A stretch of DNA of 64,000 nt from Afipia sp. (GCA_044464625.1 JBIQLC010000012.1:252-64251); one strand, 5' to 3'; counted from the first letter of the stretch, positions 20,495-26,668 are shown. The notes: generated by a model from the letters alone, not told the origin. Numbers and translations are program-made.

Positions 20495-21550
20495 CTAAAG
20501 TGGGCGGCCCGGCGAATTGACGTCACCGCCATCGATATCATCGGTTGACGCAACGGCCTGATCGTCGACCACATCGATGAACGTCGCCGGATGCAATCGC
20601 TTGCGACTGATGGTGAGATCGAACACATCGAAGCGATTGTAGTAACCGGTCACATCGTGGAACTGCTTGGGCTCGACGCAGCGCGACAGGTCGAACTCGG
20701 CATAACCGATGCCCTCCTCGTCCTGCAGCATGTCACCGACCACTTCCGCCGTCGGATCGACAAAGAAGCTCGCCGCGCGCGGCGTGCGATCAATCACTTC
20801 GGCCACCGACGGATCGCGCGCGATCAAGAAATCGCGCATTGCCTTGTCGGTATATCCGGCGGTGATGATGCCGAACGCCTTGGCCTCGAACGAATGGGCA
20901 CTGGCGCGGATGCGGTTGGCGGCGACGTTGTTGAAGTTGGCGTTGTAGTTGCCGCCGGCGGCCGGTCGCCGCGTCGGCCACATCGGCGGCCAACTCGAAA
21001 TGTGAATCTGCTCGGCCTGCGCCATCAGCGCGTAGCGCGCCAGCGGGTTGGTGTTCTCGCCGCAGATCAGATTGCCGACCCGACCCGCCGGCGTCGCGGA
21101 CACTTTCAGGCCAGCCCCATCGCCTGCTGCCCAGATCAGTTTTTCATAGAAGGTCGGCACCAGCTTGCGGTGATGATTGAGGATCGCGCCGTCATGACCG
21201 ATCAGGATGTTGCTGTTCCACATCGCGCCGACGCTGGCCGACGAACTTTCGCTGATGCCCATCGACACCGTGACGTCGAGCGCGCGAGCCTCACGCCGCA
21301 GCGCTGCGATCTCCGGCCCCTGCGCCGAAACTGACTGCTCGGCCATCAACATGAACAGATCGTGATTGTCGATCGGTGCCCACAGCGCGGCCCAAACCGG
21401 AAACGCCGGAATGTAGGTCTCGGGAAAGGCGATCAGTTGCGCGCCCGACTTCGCGGCTTCGCGGATGATCGAGATCGCCTTGGCGGTGGTCGCCGCGCGA
21501 TCGAGAAAAACCGGCGCCGCATGCACGGTCGCAACTTTCACGGATGACAT
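20495..21550 (-). CDS. Nitrilase (carbon-nitrogen hydrolase, branch 1)
   Basis: Catalytic triad AFPE, HHRKLVPT, LICGEN; C-terminal DVTGYYNRFDVF. Confidence 0.9.
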   Translation of the reverse strand: MSSVKVATVHAAPVFLDRAATTAKAISIIREAAKSGAQLIAFPETYIPAFPVWAALWAPIDNHDLFMLMAEQSVSAQGPEIAALRREARALDVTVSMGISESSSASVGAMWNSNILIGHDGAILNHHRKLVPTFYEKLIWAAGDGAGLKVSATPAGRVGNLICGENTNPLARYALMAQAEQIHISSWPPMWPTRRPAAGGNYNANFNNVAANRIRASAHSFEAKAFGIITAGYTDKAMRDFLIARDPSVAEVIDRTPRAASFFVDPTAEVVGDMLQDEEGIGYAEFDLSRCVEPKQFHDVTGYYNRFDVFDLTISRKRLHPATFIDVVDDQAVASTDDIDGGDVNSPGRPL

Positions 21551-21598
21551 GTTCGATGATCCTTCCATTCGAGGTCTTGCCCGCCTCGTCCCGTGATC

Positions 21599-21628
21599 AT
21601 AGCGACATCATCCGGCAATAAAAAAGCC
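21599..21628. repeat. 30-bp direct repeat, left copy
   Basis: ATAGCGACATCATCCGGCAATAAAAAAGCC; identical to 22931-22961 apart from one A in the A-run. Confidence 0.9.
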
Positions 21629-21729
21629 TACTTAAAGCGGGGTCTTTTGAATTTGACACCATCGAGGTTTGAGCTGAAACTGGATGCACGAGTGCCTTTT
21701 CACGTCACGAAAGCCGACAACAAAGCCCC

Positions 21730-22884
21730 GTGCAGAGGCGCGATATGATGACGGCCAGCCCTGAGCGTTTATCGAGCGTCATCGCCGGTATCTACGACAC
21801 AGTGCTGGAGCCGGATCTCTGGACGCGCGTGCTCCCGTCAATTGCCAACATCTTCGACAGCCAGCAGGCTGCATTGAATGTCCTGGACGGCAGTGGACGG
21901 ACAATTCTGTTCAACGCACTCCATGGACTTGGCACCGAAGACCTTACGCTGTTTCGCGCATTCGTCGCCGTCGACGACACGCCGCAATGGTGGCAAATCG
22001 CGCCCACCGACCGGCCGTCTCTCAGATCGTCGATCTCGCCCGATCGCGAATTCGCACTCTCGTCGTACTACAACGAGGTCATACGTCCGTCCGGCTCCTT
22101 CTATGCGCTTCTTGCGCCGGTGACGCGCAGCGCCGAAAGCCATGTCGATCTTTTTGTCGCGCGCGAGACGTCCTCGAAAGATTACGACGCCGGACACCTC
22201 GCAACGATGCAACTGCTGATGTCGCACGTCCGGCGCAGCATCGACCTCTATCGCAAGCTCGCGACAAGGCGATCGCTGGCGTCGGCGCTAACGCATCTTC
22301 CCTTCGGAGTCATTTTCGTCGATCCCAGCCTGCGCGTCATCGACATGAACGAGACCGCCGAGACGATGGTCACGCGGCCGCATTCTCCGCTGCGCGTGAA
22401 GTCCCGCGTGATGTCCATGACAGACCGGAAAAATCAGACGGCGCTGCAACGGCTGGTGGCCGGCGCCTGCTCTGTCAATGGCGGCGTGATCGAGGGTGTC
22501 GGCGGTGACATTTCGGTCCGGCCCGGCCCAAACAATCATGTGCGCGCGAACATCAGCATATCGGTCGCCCCGTTGCCTGATCCCCACGCACACGACATGC
22601 CGCACGAACGATGCGCCGTGCTTTTCGTTCGCGAGATATCGTTCGACGTCGCCGAGGGGCTGACGGATCAGATCCGCGTTTTTTTCAAGCTGACGTCAAA
22701 GGAAGCGGCCCTTGCAACATCCCTGGTGGCCGGCCGCACCCTCAAACAGGCTGCCGAAGACAACAACATTCAGTTCAACACCGCGCGCGGATATCTGGAA
22801 ACGATTTTCGACAAGACTGAAACACGCCAGCAGAGTCAGCTCGTGCTGCTGCTCAAGAGTCTTCAGCCTCTCGTTCGTCGATGA
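21730..22884 (+). CDS. LuxR/CsgD-type HTH regulator with N-terminal sensor and PAS-like domain
   Basis: IAGIYDTVLEPDLW N-terminus, FGVIFVD...NETAE PAS-like segment, C-terminal LTSKEAALATSL...TLKQAAE...IFDKTETRQQSQLV HTH; start GTG 21730 or a nearby ATG. Confidence 0.82.
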   Translation: MQRRDMMTASPERLSSVIAGIYDTVLEPDLWTRVLPSIANIFDSQQAALNVLDGSGRTILFNALHGLGTEDLTLFRAFVAVDDTPQWWQIAPTDRPSLRSSISPDREFALSSYYNEVIRPSGSFYALLAPVTRSAESHVDLFVARETSSKDYDAGHLATMQLLMSHVRRSIDLYRKLATRRSLASALTHLPFGVIFVDPSLRVIDMNETAETMVTRPHSPLRVKSRVMSMTDRKNQTALQRLVAGACSVNGGVIEGVGGDISVRPGPNNHVRANISISVAPLPDPHAHDMPHERCAVLFVREISFDVAEGLTDQIRVFFKLTSKEAALATSLVAGRTLKQAAEDNNIQFNTARGYLETIFDKTETRQQSQLVLLLKSLQPLVRR

Positions 22885-22930
22885 CAGGCCTAATAACGAT
22901 TGCAAGCCCGAGGCAGGCGTACGGCAAACA

Positions 22931-22961
22931 ATAGCGACATCATCCGGCAATAAAAAAAGCC
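22931..22961. repeat. 30-bp direct repeat, right copy (31 bp)
   Basis: ATAGCGACATCATCCGGCAATAAAAAAAGCC, overlapping the terminator A/U tract. Confidence 0.9.
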
Positions 22962-22980
22962 CGCGCGAAGCGGGCTTTTC
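22952..22980 (-). terminator. Rho-independent terminator of the 22994-23263 gene (possibly bidirectional)
   Basis: AAAAAAAGCCCGC-gcgaa-GCGGGCTTTTC; gives a 7-U tail on the minus strand. Confidence 0.85.
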
Positions 22981-22993
22981 AGCAATGCGAAAC

Positions 22994-23263
22994 TTACCAC
23001 CGGCGCCAATGACGATGATGCCAGCCATGATGATGGCGGTGGCCATAGAATCGCGGAGCACCATAGTAACCCCACGACCGATAATACCGCCGGTTCGGCA
23101 CACAACGGCCCCAGGGGTTAACGTGCCAGCCGGGGCCGCAGCGCCAGCCGACTTCGGTTACGGGAGCGGTGGTATTGCCGAGCGGCGCAGCGGGCATCGC
23201 CTGCGCGGCTGATGCCATACCGAGACCGACAACGACAGCGAGTGAAGCCAAGAGTTTTTTCAT
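22994..23263 (-). CDS. Small secreted protein, GCG_CRPN-prefix-like, with His/Arg/Trp/Tyr-rich tail (89 aa)
   Basis: Signal peptide MKKLLASLAVVVGLGMASAAQA, WRCGPGWHVNPWGRCVPN Cys pair, tail GHRHHHGWHHRHWRRW; RBS GAGGAG before ATG 23263. Confidence 0.8.
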   Translation of the reverse strand: MKKLLASLAVVVGLGMASAAQAMPAAPLGNTTAPVTEVGWRCGPGWHVNPWGRCVPNRRYYRSWGYYGAPRFYGHRHHHGWHHRHWRRW

Positions 23264-23664
23264 GGCGTTTCTCCTCTTTCCTGAATACCCAATCTCAACG
23301 CATCGCCCCTGAACATGCGATGAAGGACCTCGCCGGAATTCCGCCTTAGTCATACGCGGTCACTTCGTCGAACGAGGCACCATCGACGATTCAAGTTTTT
23401 CAAGAAGCGGACGCGCTGAACGTTCCGCGTCGAACGCGGATTAAACTTTGTGGGCGCCGGAACTGAATCGAGTTCCCAAATCCACAACCCGTCACGCTTT
23501 CAGCGAAAGCTCGCGAAGCACGATGCTGACTTATCGTCTCTTGGGAGTCAGCGATGCGGGATCGATGGAGTGAGATTCAGAAAGCCGAAAATGCGATGAG
23601 ACCGCCGACTCGCGCGACGCAAGTCCCGCAATCACGTCGTCCATTCATCGAATCGGAAAAGCGT

Positions 23665-23708
23665 TGGAGCGGGTGAAGGGAATCGAACCCTCGTATTCAG
23701 CTTGGAAG
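23665..23708 (-). repeat. attR: displaced 3' fragment of tRNA-Gly
   Basis: Minus strand CTTCCAAGCTGAATACGAGGGTTCGATTCCCTTCACCCGCTCCA; similarity to the intact tRNA stops at the 5' edge of the anticodon loop. Confidence 0.92.
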
Positions 23709-23840
23709 TCGATTCCGTAACATTTACTTGCATCTCACCAAACCTCATCCAACAGCATAAGCTGTCATATTTTCAACAGTATAGCGGTCTACAGCACGTC
23801 ATCGGAAATCACCCCAAAACACCCCAGCCACCGGATTTTT

Positions 23841-23858
23841 GTGCCCCGTGAGTGCCCC
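23841..23858 (+). promoter_or_regulatory. Putative tyrosine-integrase arm-type site pair (GTGCCCC-N4-GTGCCCC)
   Basis: GTGCCCCgtgaGTGCCCC about 130 bp inside the attR core; same motif and orientation at 26371-26388. Confidence 0.65.
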
Positions 23859-23950
23859 GGAAATCTGGGTACAAAAGGCATTCCATGGTTGTTCACAGCG
23901 CTTGCTGCCAGCATCCTGTTTTGCAGAGCCTGCTGCATGGATTTGAACAG

Positions 23951-24895
23951 GTGACTGCAGAATTTGAATACGACGTTGCTTTCAGTTTTTGCGCCATCGA
24001 CGAAGGCGTAGCTACGCAACTAAACGATCTTCTGGCCCCGCGCTTGAAAACGTTCATCTACAGTGAGCGGCAACGAGAAATCGCGGGCACGGACGGCCAG
24101 GATAGTTTCAGCAAGGTATATGGAAAGACCGCACGCCTAGTCGTGGTGTTATTCCGCCCTGAATGGGGCGAAACGCCGTGGACTCGCGTCGAGAAGGACG
24201 CGATCAAAAACAGGTCGCTGGATGACGGCTGGGACTTCACAACCTTTGTGCCAACTGTCGAAAAACCTCAGATGCCGCCTTGGCTACCAAAGACGCGGCT
24301 TTACGTTGGCCTGCAACGCTGGGGCGTAGAAGGTGCCGCCGCGACGATTGAAGCGCGAGCCACGGAGCGAGGCAGCACCCCCCGCGAAGAAACCGCCACC
24401 GAGCGTGCTGAGCGGCTGCGTAGATCCTTGGATCTCAAGAAAAAACAAGAACAGTTCCAATCGACGGAGGCTGGCGTCCAGAGCGCGAAACAAGCCTACG
24501 AGGCTTTTTCTCTGGCAGTTGAGAAACACGCTGAGTCAATCACCGCCGCAGGCGTCAAAATAGACACAAAGAGATCGCAGGAATTCCGGATCGTTACCGG
24601 CTTGTATCCTTGCAATATGATCTGCAGCTTTAGCCCGTTCTACTCGAACTCCCTTGATGGCGCTCATCTGCTTGTCGATGCGTTTAAGGGATTCCCACGT
24701 ATACCAGGATTCTATGGATCGATAGAGAAGGCCATGAAGCTAAAATCGTTGCGCTATTCCTACCAACTCGTGAGACCGGATTATCATACGTGGGTTGGCG
24801 TGGACGAAAAAGGAAGAGAGTTCACACCGCAGCAACTTGCAGATCACGTCCTTCGGGCCTACATGGACCTCGCCGAGAAGACGAAGGCCGACTGA
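23951..24895 (+). CDS. TIR-domain protein (TIR, charged coiled-coil, uncharacterised C-terminal domain), 314 aa
   Basis: YDVAFSF (betaA), TFIY (betaB), LVVVLF (betaC), WGETPWTRVE with Glu codon at 24191-24193 in the catalytic position; start GTG 23951 preferred over 23852/23885. Confidence 0.82.
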   Translation: MTAEFEYDVAFSFCAIDEGVATQLNDLLAPRLKTFIYSERQREIAGTDGQDSFSKVYGKTARLVVVLFRPEWGETPWTRVEKDAIKNRSLDDGWDFTTFVPTVEKPQMPPWLPKTRLYVGLQRWGVEGAAATIEARATERGSTPREETATERAERLRRSLDLKKKQEQFQSTEAGVQSAKQAYEAFSLAVEKHAESITAAGVKIDTKRSQEFRIVTGLYPCNMICSFSPFYSNSLDGAHLLVDAFKGFPRIPGFYGSIEKAMKLKSLRYSYQLVRPDYHTWVGVDEKGREFTPQQLADHVLRAYMDLAEKTKAD

Positions 24896-24905
24896 GCAGC
24901 GCAGG

Positions 24906-25067
24906 TTAATTGGCCCTTGTGAATTCCCGCAGCGCCTTCTGCGCCCGCCTCCGATCCTCGTCCGTCTTCGCCTCGTCGACATGCGACTGGAGAATACGGC
25001 GCATCTTCTGCTCGGCAGACTCTTTTGCCTCGCGGGCAAGCTCAGATTTGACCAATAGAATCCTCAT
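24906..25067 (-). CDS. Small charged helical hypothetical protein (53 aa)
   Basis: MRILLVKSELAREAKESAEQKMRRILQSHVDEAKTDEDRRRAQKALREFTRAN; starts 24 nt after the methyltransferase stop on the same strand; below the ORF-track cutoff. Confidence 0.45.
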   Translation of the reverse strand: MRILLVKSELAREAKESAEQKMRRILQSHVDEAKTDEDRRRAQKALREFTRAN

Positions 25068-25091
25068 AGCGGTATGGTGCAATCACGACCG

Positions 25092-26078
25092 TCAGGCGGC
25101 AAATAGATCGACCTGACGTGACGGAGCCTCGGTCGCTTGCCGTGCTGCGATGACGGCCTCCAACCTGAGCCGGGTCAATTCTACGTATTCAGGATTAAGC
25201 TCGCAGCCGATGTAGCGACGACCATGCTCGATCGAAACCTGACCGGTAGTTCCGCTGCCGTTGAATGGATCGAGCACGATGTCGCCCGGGCGGCTGCCAG
25301 CCAGAATGCATGGCTCGATCAGCGCAGGCGGGAACGTGGCGAAATGTGCGCCTTTGTAGGGGCGCGTGGCGACGGTCCAGACGCTGCGGCGGTTGCGCTT
25401 GCCATCCTCCAATCTCTCTTTGTCGCTGCTTCGACCAAGCTGGTGCTCTGCAGTTTTTCCGCGGTTGAAGCTGGAGCCAGCTGCGCCTTTGACTGCATCC
25501 TCTCGCATCGCCTCGCTGTCGCAAAAATAGCGTTCCGACTTGCTCAGCAAAAAGATGTACTCATGCGCCTTGGTGCAGCGGTCGCGCACGCTCTCAGGCA
25601 TCGGGTTCGGCTTGTGCCAGATGATGTCCTGGCGCAGGTACCAGCCATCGGCGCGCAAGGCGAATGCCAGCATCCACGGGATGCCGATGAGGTCTTTAGG
25701 TTTGAGTCCCAGCGCTGCTGCATTGCTGGTGCGGTCGCTCATCTGCTCCAGCGTGTTGCGCGTGCTGCCAACCTTTGCGGTATCGGAAACCTTGCGGTCG
25801 GTGCCACCAGTGCGCGCGTAACTATCCCCAATGTTCAGCCAAAGCGTCCCATCATCGGCCAGCACCCGGCGCACCTCACGAAAGACCTCGACCATCTTCG
25901 CAATGTAGGCGCCCGGCGTTTCCTCCAATCCAATCTGTCCGTCGTGCCCGTAGTCGCGGAGGCCGTAATATGGTGGCGAAGTCACGCACATCTGCACGCT
26001 GTTCGCCGGCAACTCTTTTAGTCGTGTAATGCAGTCGCCAACGTAGACCGTCGCGCCTTCAAGTTCGAGTTTGTCCAT
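25092..26078 (-). CDS. Site-specific DNA methyltransferase, beta-class N4-C/N6-A, phage type
   Basis: Motif IV TSPPY near the N-terminus, GLRDYG...QIGLE, IIWHKPNPMPESVRDRCT, HFATFP, motif I LDPFNGSGTTG near the C-terminus. Confidence 0.92.
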   Translation of the reverse strand: MDKLELEGATVYVGDCITRLKELPANSVQMCVTSPPYYGLRDYGHDGQIGLEETPGAYIAKMVEVFREVRRVLADDGTLWLNIGDSYARTGGTDRKVSDTAKVGSTRNTLEQMSDRTSNAAALGLKPKDLIGIPWMLAFALRADGWYLRQDIIWHKPNPMPESVRDRCTKAHEYIFLLSKSERYFCDSEAMREDAVKGAAGSSFNRGKTAEHQLGRSSDKERLEDGKRNRRSVWTVATRPYKGAHFATFPPALIEPCILAGSRPGDIVLDPFNGSGTTGQVSIEHGRRYIGCELNPEYVELTRLRLEAVIAARQATEAPSRQVDLFAA

Positions 26079-26370
26079 TAAGTGTGGTCGCCACGTTGGT
26101 TCGTGGCTTGAAGTTTGTTCTCACGAATTCCAGTCGAAGGACGGCTTCGCGTGATAACGCATGACAACAATCATTTTGCGGCAATGAATTCGATGCTCGA
26201 CCAGCTCAAGCCATCAGCCACAGAATCAGAGTTGACTAGGCCTGCGCGCCACCAACGCAGCGCACGACCGAATTATGCATCAAAGTTTTTGCAGCAAATG
26301 AAAACCAGACAAACTCGTGTGGTTATCGTTCGAGCAAAGTCATCAGTCTGAAAAGCTGTTGACGAGAGAT

Positions 26371-26388
26371 GTGCCCCAGGAGTGCCCC
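26371..26388 (+). promoter_or_regulatory. Putative tyrosine-integrase arm-type site pair, tRNA-proximal
   Basis: GTGCCCCaggaGTGCCCC about 130 bp from the CTTGGAAG core in tRNA-Gly. Confidence 0.65.
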
Positions 26389-26480
26389 GAACGCGCTTTT
26401 TGGTCGCACGACGGACTCTTGATGCGTCCGCGCGGGTCGCGTAACGCCTTGTCCTGCAAGTGATTTTATCGATGAAGGGA

Positions 26481-26554
26481 TGGAGCGGGTACCGGGAATC
26501 GAACCCGGGTATTCAGCTTGGAAGGCTGCTGCTCTACCATTGAGCTACACCCGC
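26481..26554 (-). tRNA. tRNA-Gly(TCC), also attL
   Basis: GCGGGTGTAGCTCAATGGTAGAGCAGCAGCCTTCCAAGCTGAATACCCGGGTTCGATTCCCGGTACCCGCTCCA, 74 nt. Confidence 0.97.
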
Positions 26555-26643
26555 GTCGCGCCGATGACCTAGCATGGCCTCACCGCGGTCTCAACCGCCC
26601 CGCGCGCACCCTGTGGGCGCCGCCTGGGCAGGCGAACATCCTC

Positions 26644-26668
26644 GGAACTCCTTCATCCGCCCCACGTT
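26644..26668 (+). promoter_or_regulatory. sigmaEcfG (general stress response) promoter
   Basis: GGAAC-N16-CGTT upstream of the 60-aa ORF. Confidence 0.7.

What the first reader, a model, noticed from the sequence alone, without database searches (positions are those of the whole stretch)
23665..26524. Minimal integrase-less element that keeps both att ends and symmetric arm-type sites
Seen: a 44-nt repeat of the tRNA-Gly 3' half (23665-23708 versus 26481-26524, core GTATTCAGCTTGGAAG) brackets ~2.8 kb. The tandem motif GTGCCCC-N4-GTGCCCC occurs at 23841-23858 and 26371-26388 in the same orientation, each ~130 bp from a core. No integrase or excisionase ORF lies inside. Established: tyrosine integrases use core sites plus direct-repeat arm sites. 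Inference: either a prophage cut down by a large internal deletion that kept only the ends and a defence gene, or a non-autonomous cassette excised in trans by a helper integrase.
Basis: partly seen in the sequence, partly recalled or inferred. Interest (0 to 1): 0.72.

Follow-up and report, generated by a model that had tools for sequence, protein, structure and literature searches.

The report
Integrase-less islet in tRNA-Gly gene
A 2.8-kb piece of foreign DNA carrying a TIR-domain gene and a phage-type DNA methyltransferase sits in the end of a tRNA-Gly gene with both integration sites intact but no integrase of its own, so it probably depends on an integrase supplied by another element.

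Summary
An intact tRNA-Gly(UCC) gene (26481-26554, minus strand) and an imperfect 44-nt copy of its 3' half (23665-23708; 16-nt identical core) bracket 2,816 bp of lower-GC DNA. The DNA holds a TIR-domain gene, a 58-aa ORF and an N6/N4 DNA methyltransferase, and no integrase.

The left copy is the native Bradyrhizobium-type tRNA allele. The tRNA now carries a foreign T-arm with compensatory changes, which is the signature of true site-specific integration.

GTGCCCC-N4-GTGCCCC occurs only twice in the window, 132 and 120 nt from the cores. Homologous islets (8 loci at tRNA-Gly; none of the five with both boundaries encodes an integrase) keep the heptamer pairs and this spacing to within 1 nt, although their arms have diverged.

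In viral contigs the motif lies within 200 bp of a tyrosine-integrase gene in 36 of 122 loci, against 0 of 120 for a reversed control. Two integrase-bearing phages show the same pair-core-pair layout.

One relative carries the islet in tandem with an integrase-bearing element in the same tRNA.

Best reading: a non-autonomous, CIME-like islet. Excision in trans is inferred, not shown. Divergence similar to the flanks suggests mostly vertical inheritance.

The parts
23665..23708 (-). Left direct repeat. This is the displaced native 3' half of tRNA-Gly (the attR side). It includes the 16-nt core at 23693-23708.
   Evidence: It matches 26481-26524 at 38 of 44 positions. It is 44/44 identical to the tRNA-Gly 3' half of B. 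murdochi (L002), R. palustris (L004) and L011. Its differences from the window's own tRNA are compensatory in the T-stem (read directly).
23709..23840 (.). Left arm spacer, 132 nt. The sequence is poorly conserved but the length is conserved.
   Evidence: The alignment of six islets shows few conserved columns. The gap is 131-132 nt in window, L007, L392, L043 and L002.
23841..23858 (+). Left heptamer pair GTGCCCC-GTGA-GTGCCCC, a putative arm-type integrase site. It abuts the TIR gene promoter region.
   Evidence: Exact match. Homologous pairs sit at the same position in L007, L392, L043, L011 and L002. The motif is absent upstream of TIR genes that are not at tRNA-Gly (L009, L010).
23870..23875 (+). 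Putative -10 element (TACAAA) of the TIR gene. This is inferred only.
   Evidence: The block tgggtacaa / tgggcataa is conserved upstream of TIR genes in all contexts. The consensus promoter scan did not call it.
23951..24895 (+). TIR-domain protein gene. It is 314 aa from GTG 23951; longer ORFs start at 23885 and 23852.
   Evidence: 294 homologues, most of them 311-317 aa. The AlphaFold model has pLDDT 86. The N-terminal domain matches the MyD88, MAL and AbTir TIR domains at TM 0.66-0.71. No Pfam or PADLOC hit for this sequence.
24906..25082 (-). Small conserved ORF of 58 aa, probably helical, function unknown.
   Evidence: Homologous ORFs are present in L007 (53 aa), L392 (57 aa) and L011 (69 aa). 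No family hit.
25092..26078 (-). N6/N4 DNA methyltransferase of phage type, with no restriction-enzyme partner identified. It occupies the variable cargo slot.
   Evidence: PF01555 at 3.8e-55, PADLOC MTase_II, phrog_67, and more than 590 related viral contigs. Other islets hold other genes in the same slot.
26079..26370 (-). Leader of the cargo gene. It is conserved between islets even where the cargo differs. It contains a tandem TCAYGCG repeat (26148-26164), and a stretch of roughly 145 nt at about 26211-26355 that the alignment shows only in the window.
   Evidence: Alignment of window, L007 and L043, blastn and pattern search.
26371..26388 (+). Right heptamer pair GTGCCCC-AGGA-GTGCCCC, a putative arm-type integrase site.
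   Evidence: Exact match. The gap to the core is 119-120 nt in window, L007, L392 and L043.
26389..26480 (.). Right arm, 92 nt, well conserved (GCGGACGCATCAAGAGTCCGTC..., A-tract).
   Evidence: Segments spanning this arm together with the heptamer pair and the tRNA gene are 87% identical to L007 and 78% to L043. Alignment.
26481..26554 (-). Intact tRNA-Gly(UCC). Its 3' T-arm (26481-26508) is the element-borne ACCGG/CCCGG allele, and the core is at 26509-26524.
   Evidence: ARAGORN and Rfam at 70.1 bits. The same foreign allele is found at the right end of the islet in L007 and L392.

Best explanation
This is a non-autonomous integrative islet of the CIME kind (cis-mobilizable element). It entered the 3' half of tRNA-Gly(UCC) by tyrosine-integrase recombination within the 16-nt core.

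The islet replaced the tRNA's T-arm with its own copy and pushed the native 3' half to the far end. It keeps complete attL and attR sites, each with a tandem heptamer pair (reading GGGGCAC on the tRNA-sense strand) at a fixed distance from the core. These pairs are the arm-type sites that the N-terminal domain of an integrase would bind.

The islet has no integrase or excisionase. Any excision or re-integration therefore has to be done by an integrase made elsewhere. The likeliest source is an integrative element of the type found next to a sister islet (L392), whose integrase family is common in Bradyrhizobium.

Its payload is a TIR-domain protein (probably a defence effector), a small conserved ORF, and a slot that holds a different gene in different islets, often a phage-type DNA methyltransferase.

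Shown here: the structure, the allele swap, the islet family, the link between motif and integrase genes, and the tandem arrangement in a relative. Inferred: that the heptamers bind an integrase, and that the islet is still mobilised.
For: 1. Integration signature. The left repeat is identical to the native tRNA-Gly allele of relatives. The window's tRNA has a different T-arm that still pairs.

2. Islet family. Homologous TIR genes lie beside tRNA-Gly(tcc) in 8 loci: window, L002, L004, L007, L011, L043, L389 and L392. No integrase lies between the repeats in the five islets with both boundaries in hand (window, L007, L011, L043, L392). The other three are eroded remnants.

3. Variable cargo between conserved arms. 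The slot holds an N6_N4 MTase (window), a phrog_757 MTase (L007), a Dam MTase (L392), a 236-aa unknown protein (L043) and a 104-aa unknown protein (L011).

4. Heptamer pairs. They occur in both arms, in the same orientation. They are alike within an islet and differ between islets: GTGCCCC x4 in the window, GCGGCCC/GCGCCCC in L043, and all four ending in ..CCT in L011. Spacing is fixed at 131-132 and 119-120 nt although the arm sequence has drifted.

5. Viral contigs. An integrase-like ORF lies within 200 bp of the motif in 36 of 122 loci (21 integrase clusters at 40% identity), against 0 of 120 for the reversed motif.

6. Same layout in autonomous elements. L013 has pair - tRNA-like 3' half - pair next to its integrase. 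L323 has two identical pairs 177 nt apart.

7. Tandem arrangement. L392 reads native half - islet - ACCGG half - element with integrase, with a GTGCCAT-N4-GTGCCCC pair 53 nt from that repeat.

8. Candidate helpers. The same integrase type sits at tRNA-Gly(tcc) in L395 and L393, and has 71-75% identical homologues in Bradyrhizobium.
Against: No circular junction or empty site was seen. The only runs available are assembled contigs that drop rare variants, and the depth of the islet equals that of the flanks.

No integrase lies in the 64-kb window, and the rest of the genome is not available.

Islet nucleotide divergence between genomes is about the same as for the neighbouring rlmB region: 75 vs 76%, 73 vs 69%, 75 vs 74%. 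There is therefore no sign of recent transfer.

Several relatives are plainly eroding. L002 lost its right arm, and L004 and L389 lost their repeats or motifs.

The heptamers of the L392 islet (GCGCCCC) differ from those of its integrase-bearing neighbour (GTGCCAT/GTGCCCC).

The left pair also overlaps the TIR promoter, so part of its conservation could be regulatory.
Confidence: 0.55

Rival explanations
1. An immobile relic. A larger island or prophage integrated long ago and lost its integrase and most genes by deletion. What remains is kept only because the TIR gene is useful. On this view the att ends and heptamers are leftovers with no present function.
For: - No integrase inside the islet.
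- Divergence tracks the chromosomal flanks.
- Erosion is visible in L002, L004 and L389.
- Even read depth, with no sub-population lacking the islet.
- The methyltransferase is of phage type.
Against: - All five islets with both boundaries share the same minimal build without an integrase, which needs one old loss rather than repeated deletions.
- The 44-nt left repeat is still 100% the native allele in window, L002, L011 and L043, while the adjoining arm is heavily diverged (few conserved columns; repeat identities).
- Heptamers stay uniform within an islet, and spacing is fixed to within 1 nt.
- The T-arm allele in window, L007 and L392 differs from the native one.
Confidence: 0.3
2. The heptamer pairs are operators for a transcription regulator of the islet's own genes (the TIR gene on the left, the cargo operon on the right) and have nothing to do with recombination.
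For: - The left pair ends 11 nt before the putative -10 of the TIR gene (23870).
- The right pair lies upstream of the conserved cargo leader.
- Tandem repeats at about one helical turn are typical of regulator sites in general.
Against: - TIR genes that are not at tRNA-Gly (L009, L010) keep the -10 block but lack the pair.
- The two pairs have opposite orientation relative to the genes they would control.
- The same motif sits beside integrase genes and tRNA att sites in unrelated phages, 36 of 122 against 0 of 120.
- The distance to the core, not to the genes, is what is conserved.
Confidence: 0.1
3. Assembly artefact: a collapsed or chimeric join at repeated tRNA sequence.
For: tRNA-derived repeats break short-read assemblies. 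The Logan contigs do end inside both repeats.
Against: - An independent contig covers 23680-26538 at 100% identity, and neighbouring contigs continue into both flanks at the same depth.
- The contig breaks are explained by very abundant tRNA-Gly words from other organisms in the same samples (depth 120-480x against 5-16x).
- The same structure recurs in other genomes.
Confidence: 0.02

Closest known systems
CIMEs (cis-mobilizable elements), described beside ICEs of Streptococcus thermophilus and catalogued in ICEberg 2.0 (PMC6323972; review PMC5704250)
   Same: Flanked by attL and attR. No recombination or transfer genes of its own. A sister islet lies in tandem (accretion) with an integrase-bearing element in the same target site (L392).
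   Different: - The host is an alphaproteobacterium and the target is a tRNA-Gly gene.
- The neighbour is a small integrative element (integrase, an 83-aa ORF matching an unknown-function phage family, an AAA_25 protein), not a demonstrated ICE.
- No shared backbone with that neighbour beyond the att core and heptamer type.
- Mobilisation is not shown.
- The islet family seems old and mostly vertically inherited.
Classical tRNA-linked genomic islands and prophages made by tyrosine integrases with arm-type sites (lambda and P4 types; established knowledge)
   Same: - Insertion in the 3' half of a tRNA gene.
- Direct repeat of that half, with the tRNA regenerated from element-borne sequence.
- Repeated arm sites on both sides of the core within about 130 nt.
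- P4-type integrases (Arm-DNA-bind_3) with similar tandem heptamers sit at tRNA-Gly in metagenome loci.
   Different: No integrase or excisionase. Only 2.8 kb. The arm-site heptamer GTGCCCC was not found linked to arm-type sites in the searchable literature.
Variable defence-gene hotspots inside mobile elements such as P2 phages and P4 satellites (established knowledge, cited from memory)
   Same: A slot between conserved flanks (the leader on one side, the small ORF and TIR gene on the other) holds a different gene in each islet.
   Different: The carrier here has no mobility genes at all. The swapped genes are mostly methyltransferases without an identified restriction-enzyme partner rather than recognised defence systems (PADLOC finds only the methyltransferase).
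Bacterial TIR-domain defence proteins (Thoeris ThsB, SPARTA TIR-APAZ, AbTir)
   Same: The N-terminal domain has a TIR fold, TM 0.66-0.71 to MyD88, MAL and AbTir. A glutamate is invariant in the family (E81).
   Different: No match to any PADLOC model. No ThsA, Argonaute or other known partner gene. The coiled-coil plus C-terminal beta domain has no clear structural match. Activity is untested.

Membership tests
tRNA-integrated island made by a tyrosine integrase | Insert flanked by a direct repeat of the tRNA 3' part, with an intact tRNA at one end | tested here: met
   the repeat matches at 38 of 44 positions with a 16-nt identical core, and the tRNA scores 70.1 bits.
tRNA-integrated island made by a tyrosine integrase | The element supplies the new tRNA 3' end, and the host's own end is displaced to the far junction | tested here: met
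   The left copy equals the native allele of L002, L004 and L011 (44/44). The tRNA T-arm is a different allele that still pairs, shared with L007 and L392.
tRNA-integrated island made by a tyrosine integrase | Integrase gene inside the element | tested here: not met
   No Pfam integrase among the ORFs. tblastn with five integrases finds nothing in the window.
tRNA-integrated island made by a tyrosine integrase | Base composition different from the surroundings | tested here: met
   GC is 50-58% inside and 63-66% outside.
Arm-type integrase binding sites | Short repeats distinct from the core, present in both arms within about 150 bp | tested here: met
   Pairs lie 132 and 120 nt from the cores.
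Arm-type integrase binding sites | Conserved in position across related elements | tested here: met
   Gaps are 131-132 and 119-120 nt in window, L007, L392 and L043; the two values are swapped in L011.
Arm-type integrase binding sites | The same motif accompanies integrase genes and att cores in autonomous elements | tested here: met
   36 of 122 loci against 0 of 120 for the control within 200 bp. 21 integrase clusters. Pair-core-pair layout in L013 and L323.
Arm-type integrase binding sites | Bound by the integrase N-terminal domain | not testable with these tools
   Needs EMSA, footprinting or ChIP.
CIME (cis-mobilizable element) | attL and attR present, recombination and transfer modules absent | tested here: met
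CIME (cis-mobilizable element) | att sites match those of an autonomous element in the same host group | tested here: inconclusive
   L392-E2, L393 and L395 use the same tRNA-Gly core and similar heptamers. The arms are not otherwise homologous, and no such element is known in this genome.
CIME (cis-mobilizable element) | Found in tandem with the autonomous element (accretion) | tested here: inconclusive
   Met in relative L392. Not met in the window, where the islet directly abuts the tRNA.
CIME (cis-mobilizable element) | Excision or mobilisation by the helper's integrase | not testable with these tools
   Contig-level read data showed no circle or empty site and cannot exclude rare events.
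TIR-domain defence protein | TIR fold | tested here: met
   Model pLDDT 86. Foldseek matches to the MyD88, MAL and AbTir TIR domains. PF13676 is recorded on some homologues.
TIR-domain defence protein | Matches a known defence-system model or has a known partner gene | tested here: not met
   No PADLOC hit for the TIR protein. The neighbours are a methyltransferase and a small ORF only.
TIR-domain defence protein | NADase activity or a phage-resistance phenotype | not testable with these tools
   Needs an enzyme assay and phage challenge.
Type II restriction-modification system | Methyltransferase with a cognate restriction endonuclease | tested here: not met
   The methyltransferase is present but no nuclease domain was found. 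In sister islets the methyltransferase is replaced or decayed while the TIR gene stays.

The most novel reading that the evidence does not exclude
The heptamer pair GGGGCAC-N4-GGGGCAC may be a widely shared arm-site 'word' read by the AP2-like arm-binding domains of many otherwise distant tyrosine integrases (Arm-DNA-bind_2, Arm-DNA-bind_3 and unclassified N-domains).

If so, an integrase-less islet that keeps such pairs at the right spacing around a tRNA core could be moved by any of several resident helpers. That would explain why a family of 1.6-2.8-kb islets has kept working att sites for a long time.

In addition, the TIR protein together with the swappable methyltransferase might form a defence module not yet described, with the methyltransferase as the exchangeable part.
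Probability: 0.15. Interest if true: 0.8.

Novelty: new variant of a known kind. Interest (0 to 1): 0.58.

Why it matters
Small integrase-less islets next to tRNA genes are usually written off as debris.

This one belongs to a family that has kept both att sites, the arm-site pairs and their exact spacing while the surrounding sequence drifted. It also exchanges its cargo between conserved arms.

If it is still moved by a helper integrase, it gives a simple and testable case of parasitism on integrases outside the streptococcal CIMEs, and a route by which defence genes spread in soil bacteria.

The heptamer motif itself could also become a practical marker for finding att sites of a broad set of integrases.

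Tried and rejected
- **Read-level test for excision.** Only assembled Logan contigs were available. The apparent 'skips 2816' joint has 120-480x depth against 5-16x for the strain, and is simply the native-allele tRNA-Gly of other abundant organisms. A second joint (skips 2820, with CAGT inserted) is another organism's tRNA. Neither is an empty site.
- **Exact-protein look-ups.** The 347-aa ORF and RlmB found nothing.
- **Viral scan for a 22-nt right-arm block.** No match.
- **Genome-collection scan** with a tRNA-anchored motif. Six hits, mostly chance matches inside genes. The window's species is not in that collection.
- **TIR homologues in viral contigs.** They lie at provirus edges but without tRNA halves or heptamers, so they are uninformative.
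- **Single-sequence search of viral contigs with the L392 integrase.** Nothing found. A profile search was needed.
- **Literature search** linking the heptamer to arm-type sites. Nothing relevant; the hits are phiC31 att sequences.
- **Rfam and promoter/terminator scans of the islet.** Only the tRNA was found, and no more promoter- or terminator-like sites than in shuffled sequence.
- **Restriction-modification reading.** Rejected because there is no nuclease and the methyltransferase is swapped or lost in relatives.
Full report
**1.

ARAGORN places tRNA-Gly(tcc) at 26481-26554 on the minus strand, and Rfam scores it 70.1 bits. Its 3' 44 nt (26481-26524) recur at 23665-23708, matching at 38 of 44 positions. 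The identical core GTATTCAGCTTGGAAG lies at 23693-23708 and 26509-26524. No third copy exists in the window, even allowing 13 mismatches.

GTGCCCC-N4-GTGCCCC occurs exactly twice in 64 kb, at 23841-23858 and 26371-26388, both on the + strand. No other match appears even with two mismatches. The single heptamer is not common (8 found, 10.5 expected).

The interval has 50-58% GC against 63-66% outside. It contains three credible genes:
- a TIR-like gene on the + strand;
- a 58-aa ORF on the minus strand;
- a PF01555 N6/N4 DNA methyltransferase on the minus strand.

No integrase or excisionase domain is present. tblastn with five diverse integrases finds nothing anywhere in the window.

The structure is not an assembly artefact. 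An independent metagenome contig matches 23680-26538 at 100% identity. Neighbouring contigs run into both flanks at equal depth.

**2. It is a true site-specific insertion.**

The six differences between the two 44-mers fall in the T-stem and are compensatory. On the tRNA strand the stem reads CCGGG/CCCGG in the tRNA and GAGGG/CCCTT in the left copy (read).

The left copy is 44/44 identical to the tRNA-Gly 3' half of Bradyrhizobium murdochi (L002), Rhodopseudomonas palustris (L004) and L011. The host's own 3' half therefore now lies at the far end. The working tRNA carries a T-arm brought in by the element, with the crossover in or beyond the 16-nt core. The same element-borne allele bounds the right end of the sister islets L007 and L392.

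**3. It belongs to a family of islets without an integrase.**

The TIR-like protein has 294 homologues, mostly 311-317 aa. This places the real start at GTG 23951.

Contexts were recovered for eleven loci in all, the window included. In eight the gene lies next to tRNA-Gly(tcc) in the same orientation: window, L002, L004, L007/L008, L011, L043, L389 and L392. In three (L009, L010, L391) it lies elsewhere.

In window, L007, L011, L043 and L392 both boundaries are in hand and no integrase lies between them. L002 has lost its right arm. L004 keeps only a decayed left repeat, and L389 has none. The intervals with both boundaries preserved are 1.6-2.8 kb.

The left arm, the TIR gene, usually the small ORF, a conserved leader and the right arm are shared. 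The gene between leader and small ORF differs:

| Locus | Gene in the slot |
|---|---|
| window | N6_N4 methyltransferase (phrog_67) |
| L002 | remnant of the same methyltransferase |
| L007 | a different methyltransferase (phrog_757) |
| L392 | Dam-type methyltransferase (PF05869) |
| L043 | 236-aa unknown protein |
| L011 | 104-aa unknown protein |

Erosion is also visible. In B. murdochi the right arm and most of the methyltransferase are replaced by a perfect 107-nt duplicate of the native flank plus repeat, joined at a short microhomology. R. palustris and L389 keep little more than the TIR gene.

**4. The heptamer pairs behave like arm-type sites.**

Every islet with intact arms has a tandem pair of heptamers with an 11-bp period in each arm, on the same strand:

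| Locus | Left pair | Right pair |
|---|---|---|
| window | GTGCCCC/GTGCCCC | GTGCCCC/GTGCCCC |
| L007 and L392 | GCGCCCC/GGGCCCC | GCGCCCC/GCGCCCC |
| L043 | GCGGCCC/GCGGCCC | GCGCCCC/GCGCCCC |
| L011 | GCGTCCT/GTGTCCT | GTGGCCT/GCGGCCT |

The heptamers are thus alike within an islet and differ between islets.

The gap between pair and core is 131-132 nt on the left and 119-120 nt on the right in window, L007, L392 and L043. The values are swapped in L011. This holds although the alignment of the left arms shows few conserved columns.

The 44-nt left repeat is still the perfect native allele in four islets. Neutral decay would not keep these features.

TIR genes outside the tRNA-Gly context keep the promoter-like block tgggtacaa/tgggcataa but lack the pair. 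The pair therefore belongs to the att arm rather than to the gene.

**5. The motif is tied to integrases elsewhere.**

I scanned viral contigs for GTGCCCC-N4-GTGCCCC (122 loci) and for the reversed pattern CCCCGTG-N4-CCCCGTG as a control (120 loci).

Integrase-like ORFs were found with an iterated profile. They lie within 200 bp of the motif in 36 real loci and 0 control loci, and within 3 kb in 40 against 1. The 40 fall into 21 clusters at 40% identity. Their N-terminal domains are Arm-DNA-bind_2, Arm-DNA-bind_3 or unclassified.

The largest cluster is the integrase of wrbA-integrating lambdoid prophages of E. coli. There the pair lies in the last ~50 nt of the gene.

Two integrase-bearing contigs show the exact layout inferred for this islet's attP:
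- L013 has pair, about 95 nt, a tRNA-Met-like 3' half, then a second pair, all on one strand next to the integrase gene.
- L323 has two identical pairs 177 nt apart.

In window, L013, L014 and L016 the heptamer reads GGGGCAC on the tRNA-sense strand.

A metagenome scan anchored on the tRNA-Gly 3' end found P4-type integrases (Arm-DNA-bind_3) starting about 60 nt after three similar heptamers. It also found other small islets at tRNA-Gly that carry toxin-antitoxin or Abi genes. That scan pre-selected for the motif, so it says nothing about enrichment.

**6. A candidate helper exists in relatives.**

L392 reads as follows:
- native repeat;
- islet (TIR gene, 57-aa ORF, Dam methyltransferase);
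- a second repeat with the element-borne allele but no tRNA;
- a pair GTGCCAT-tggt-GTGCCCC 53 nt further on;
- a 284-aa ORF;
- a 405-aa tyrosine integrase;
- an 83-aa ORF matching an unknown-function phage family (phrog_18541; it looks HTH-like by eye);
- an AAA_25 protein.

This is a tandem accretion of an islet with an integrase-bearing element in the same tRNA.

The integrase has more than 1,000 homologues, including Bradyrhizobium proteins at 71-75% identity. Relatives lie directly at tRNA-Gly(tcc) in proviruses L395 and L393, again with tandem heptamers. Others lie next to 3' halves of other tRNAs.

**7. What argues for caution.**

- No circle or empty site was seen, and the data could not have shown rare events.
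- The rest of this genome is unknown.
- Islet divergence between genomes is about the same as that of the adjacent rlmB region: 75 vs 76%, 73 vs 69%, 75 vs 74%. The family therefore looks old and mostly vertically inherited.
- The left pair overlaps the likely -35 region of the TIR promoter. Part of its conservation may be regulatory.

**8. The payload.**

The AlphaFold model of the 314-aa protein has pLDDT 86. It shows an N-terminal TIR fold (TM 0.66-0.71 to MyD88, MAL and AbTir), then a coiled coil and a C-terminal beta domain with no clear match.

There is no PADLOC, Pfam or PHROG hit for the window's copy, and a glutamate is invariant in the family. A defence role is plausible but untested.

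The methyltransferase is of a very common phage type and has no nuclease partner.

**9. Verdict.**

The most likely nature is a CIME-like, non-autonomous islet (confidence 0.55). An immobile relic is the main rival (0.3).

It is a new variant of a known kind. Two points may be new. One is the conserved family with a swappable cargo slot. The other is the heptamer pair as an att-arm signature shared by many integrase lineages.

Noticed in passing
window 21500-23660: The stretch left of the islet also has reduced GC (53-61%). It holds a 384-aa ORF with a weak PAS hit and a 119-aa ORF whose product is rich in His, Arg and Trp. It may be an older island remnant at the same hotspot. No further tRNA-half repeat was found.
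   Followed up: partly
window 26148-26164 (and the homologous leader in L007, L043, L392): A second tandem repeat, TCAYGCG-N3-TCACGCG on the minus strand, lies in the conserved leader upstream of the variable cargo gene. It could be another protein-binding site.
   Followed up: partly
window about 26211-26355: The window's leader has about 145 nt more than L007 and L043 in the alignment. By eye it looks like a diverged duplication of the neighbouring leader segment (CTGATGAC.. / CTGATGGC..), and it carries the probably spurious 78-aa ORF 26115-26351.
   Followed up: partly
L002 9660-9766 and 11302-11408 (B. murdochi): A perfect 107-nt direct repeat (63 nt of native flank plus the 44-nt tRNA half) replaces the islet's right arm. 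It is joined inside the methyltransferase remnant at a short microhomology, so the right att site was deleted secondarily.
   Followed up: yes
L011 5787-7923: In this islet the core-to-pair gaps are swapped (120 nt left, 132 nt right) relative to the other members. All four heptamers end in CCT instead of CCC.
   Followed up: partly
L322, L292 and 16 similar viral loci: In wrbA-integrating lambdoid (Stx-converting) prophages of E. coli the heptamer pair lies inside the last ~50 nt of the integrase gene and encodes ..APDVP... Actinobacterial-type integrases (L323, L384) encode CAPDVP from the same DNA motif.
   Followed up: partly
L400, L403, L405, L407 (downstream of integrase): The tRNA-Thr-like att halves next to these integrases end in ..GGGGGCACCA, so the heptamer GGGGCAC coincides with a tRNA acceptor 3' end. 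These integrases also carry a tandem GGCGCAT-N4-GGCGCAT across their stop codon.
   Followed up: no
L058, L062, L066, L067 (metagenome loci): Another family of small islets at tRNA-Gly carries PIN/HTH_17 toxin-antitoxin and AbiEii/AbiEi genes, has GGGCCAC-ACAC-GGGCCAC about 105 nt after the tRNA, and has no integrase in the first 4.5 kb. L067 has a perfect distal repeat 2.5 kb away followed by what looks like a further islet.
   Followed up: partly
window 23570-23723 and 26496-26649 in runs X1-X4: Very high contig depth (120-700x) over the tRNA-derived words comes from other abundant organisms with the native tRNA-Gly allele. The strain itself is at 5-16x and appears in landfill and seawater metagenomes of one study, which could mean a shared contaminant.
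   Followed up: partly
L010 8701-9672: In one metagenome contig a 323-aa tyrosine integrase lies directly upstream of a TIR homologue (82% identical) that is not at a tRNA gene and has no heptamer pair. The TIR gene therefore also travels in other mobile contexts.
   Followed up: no
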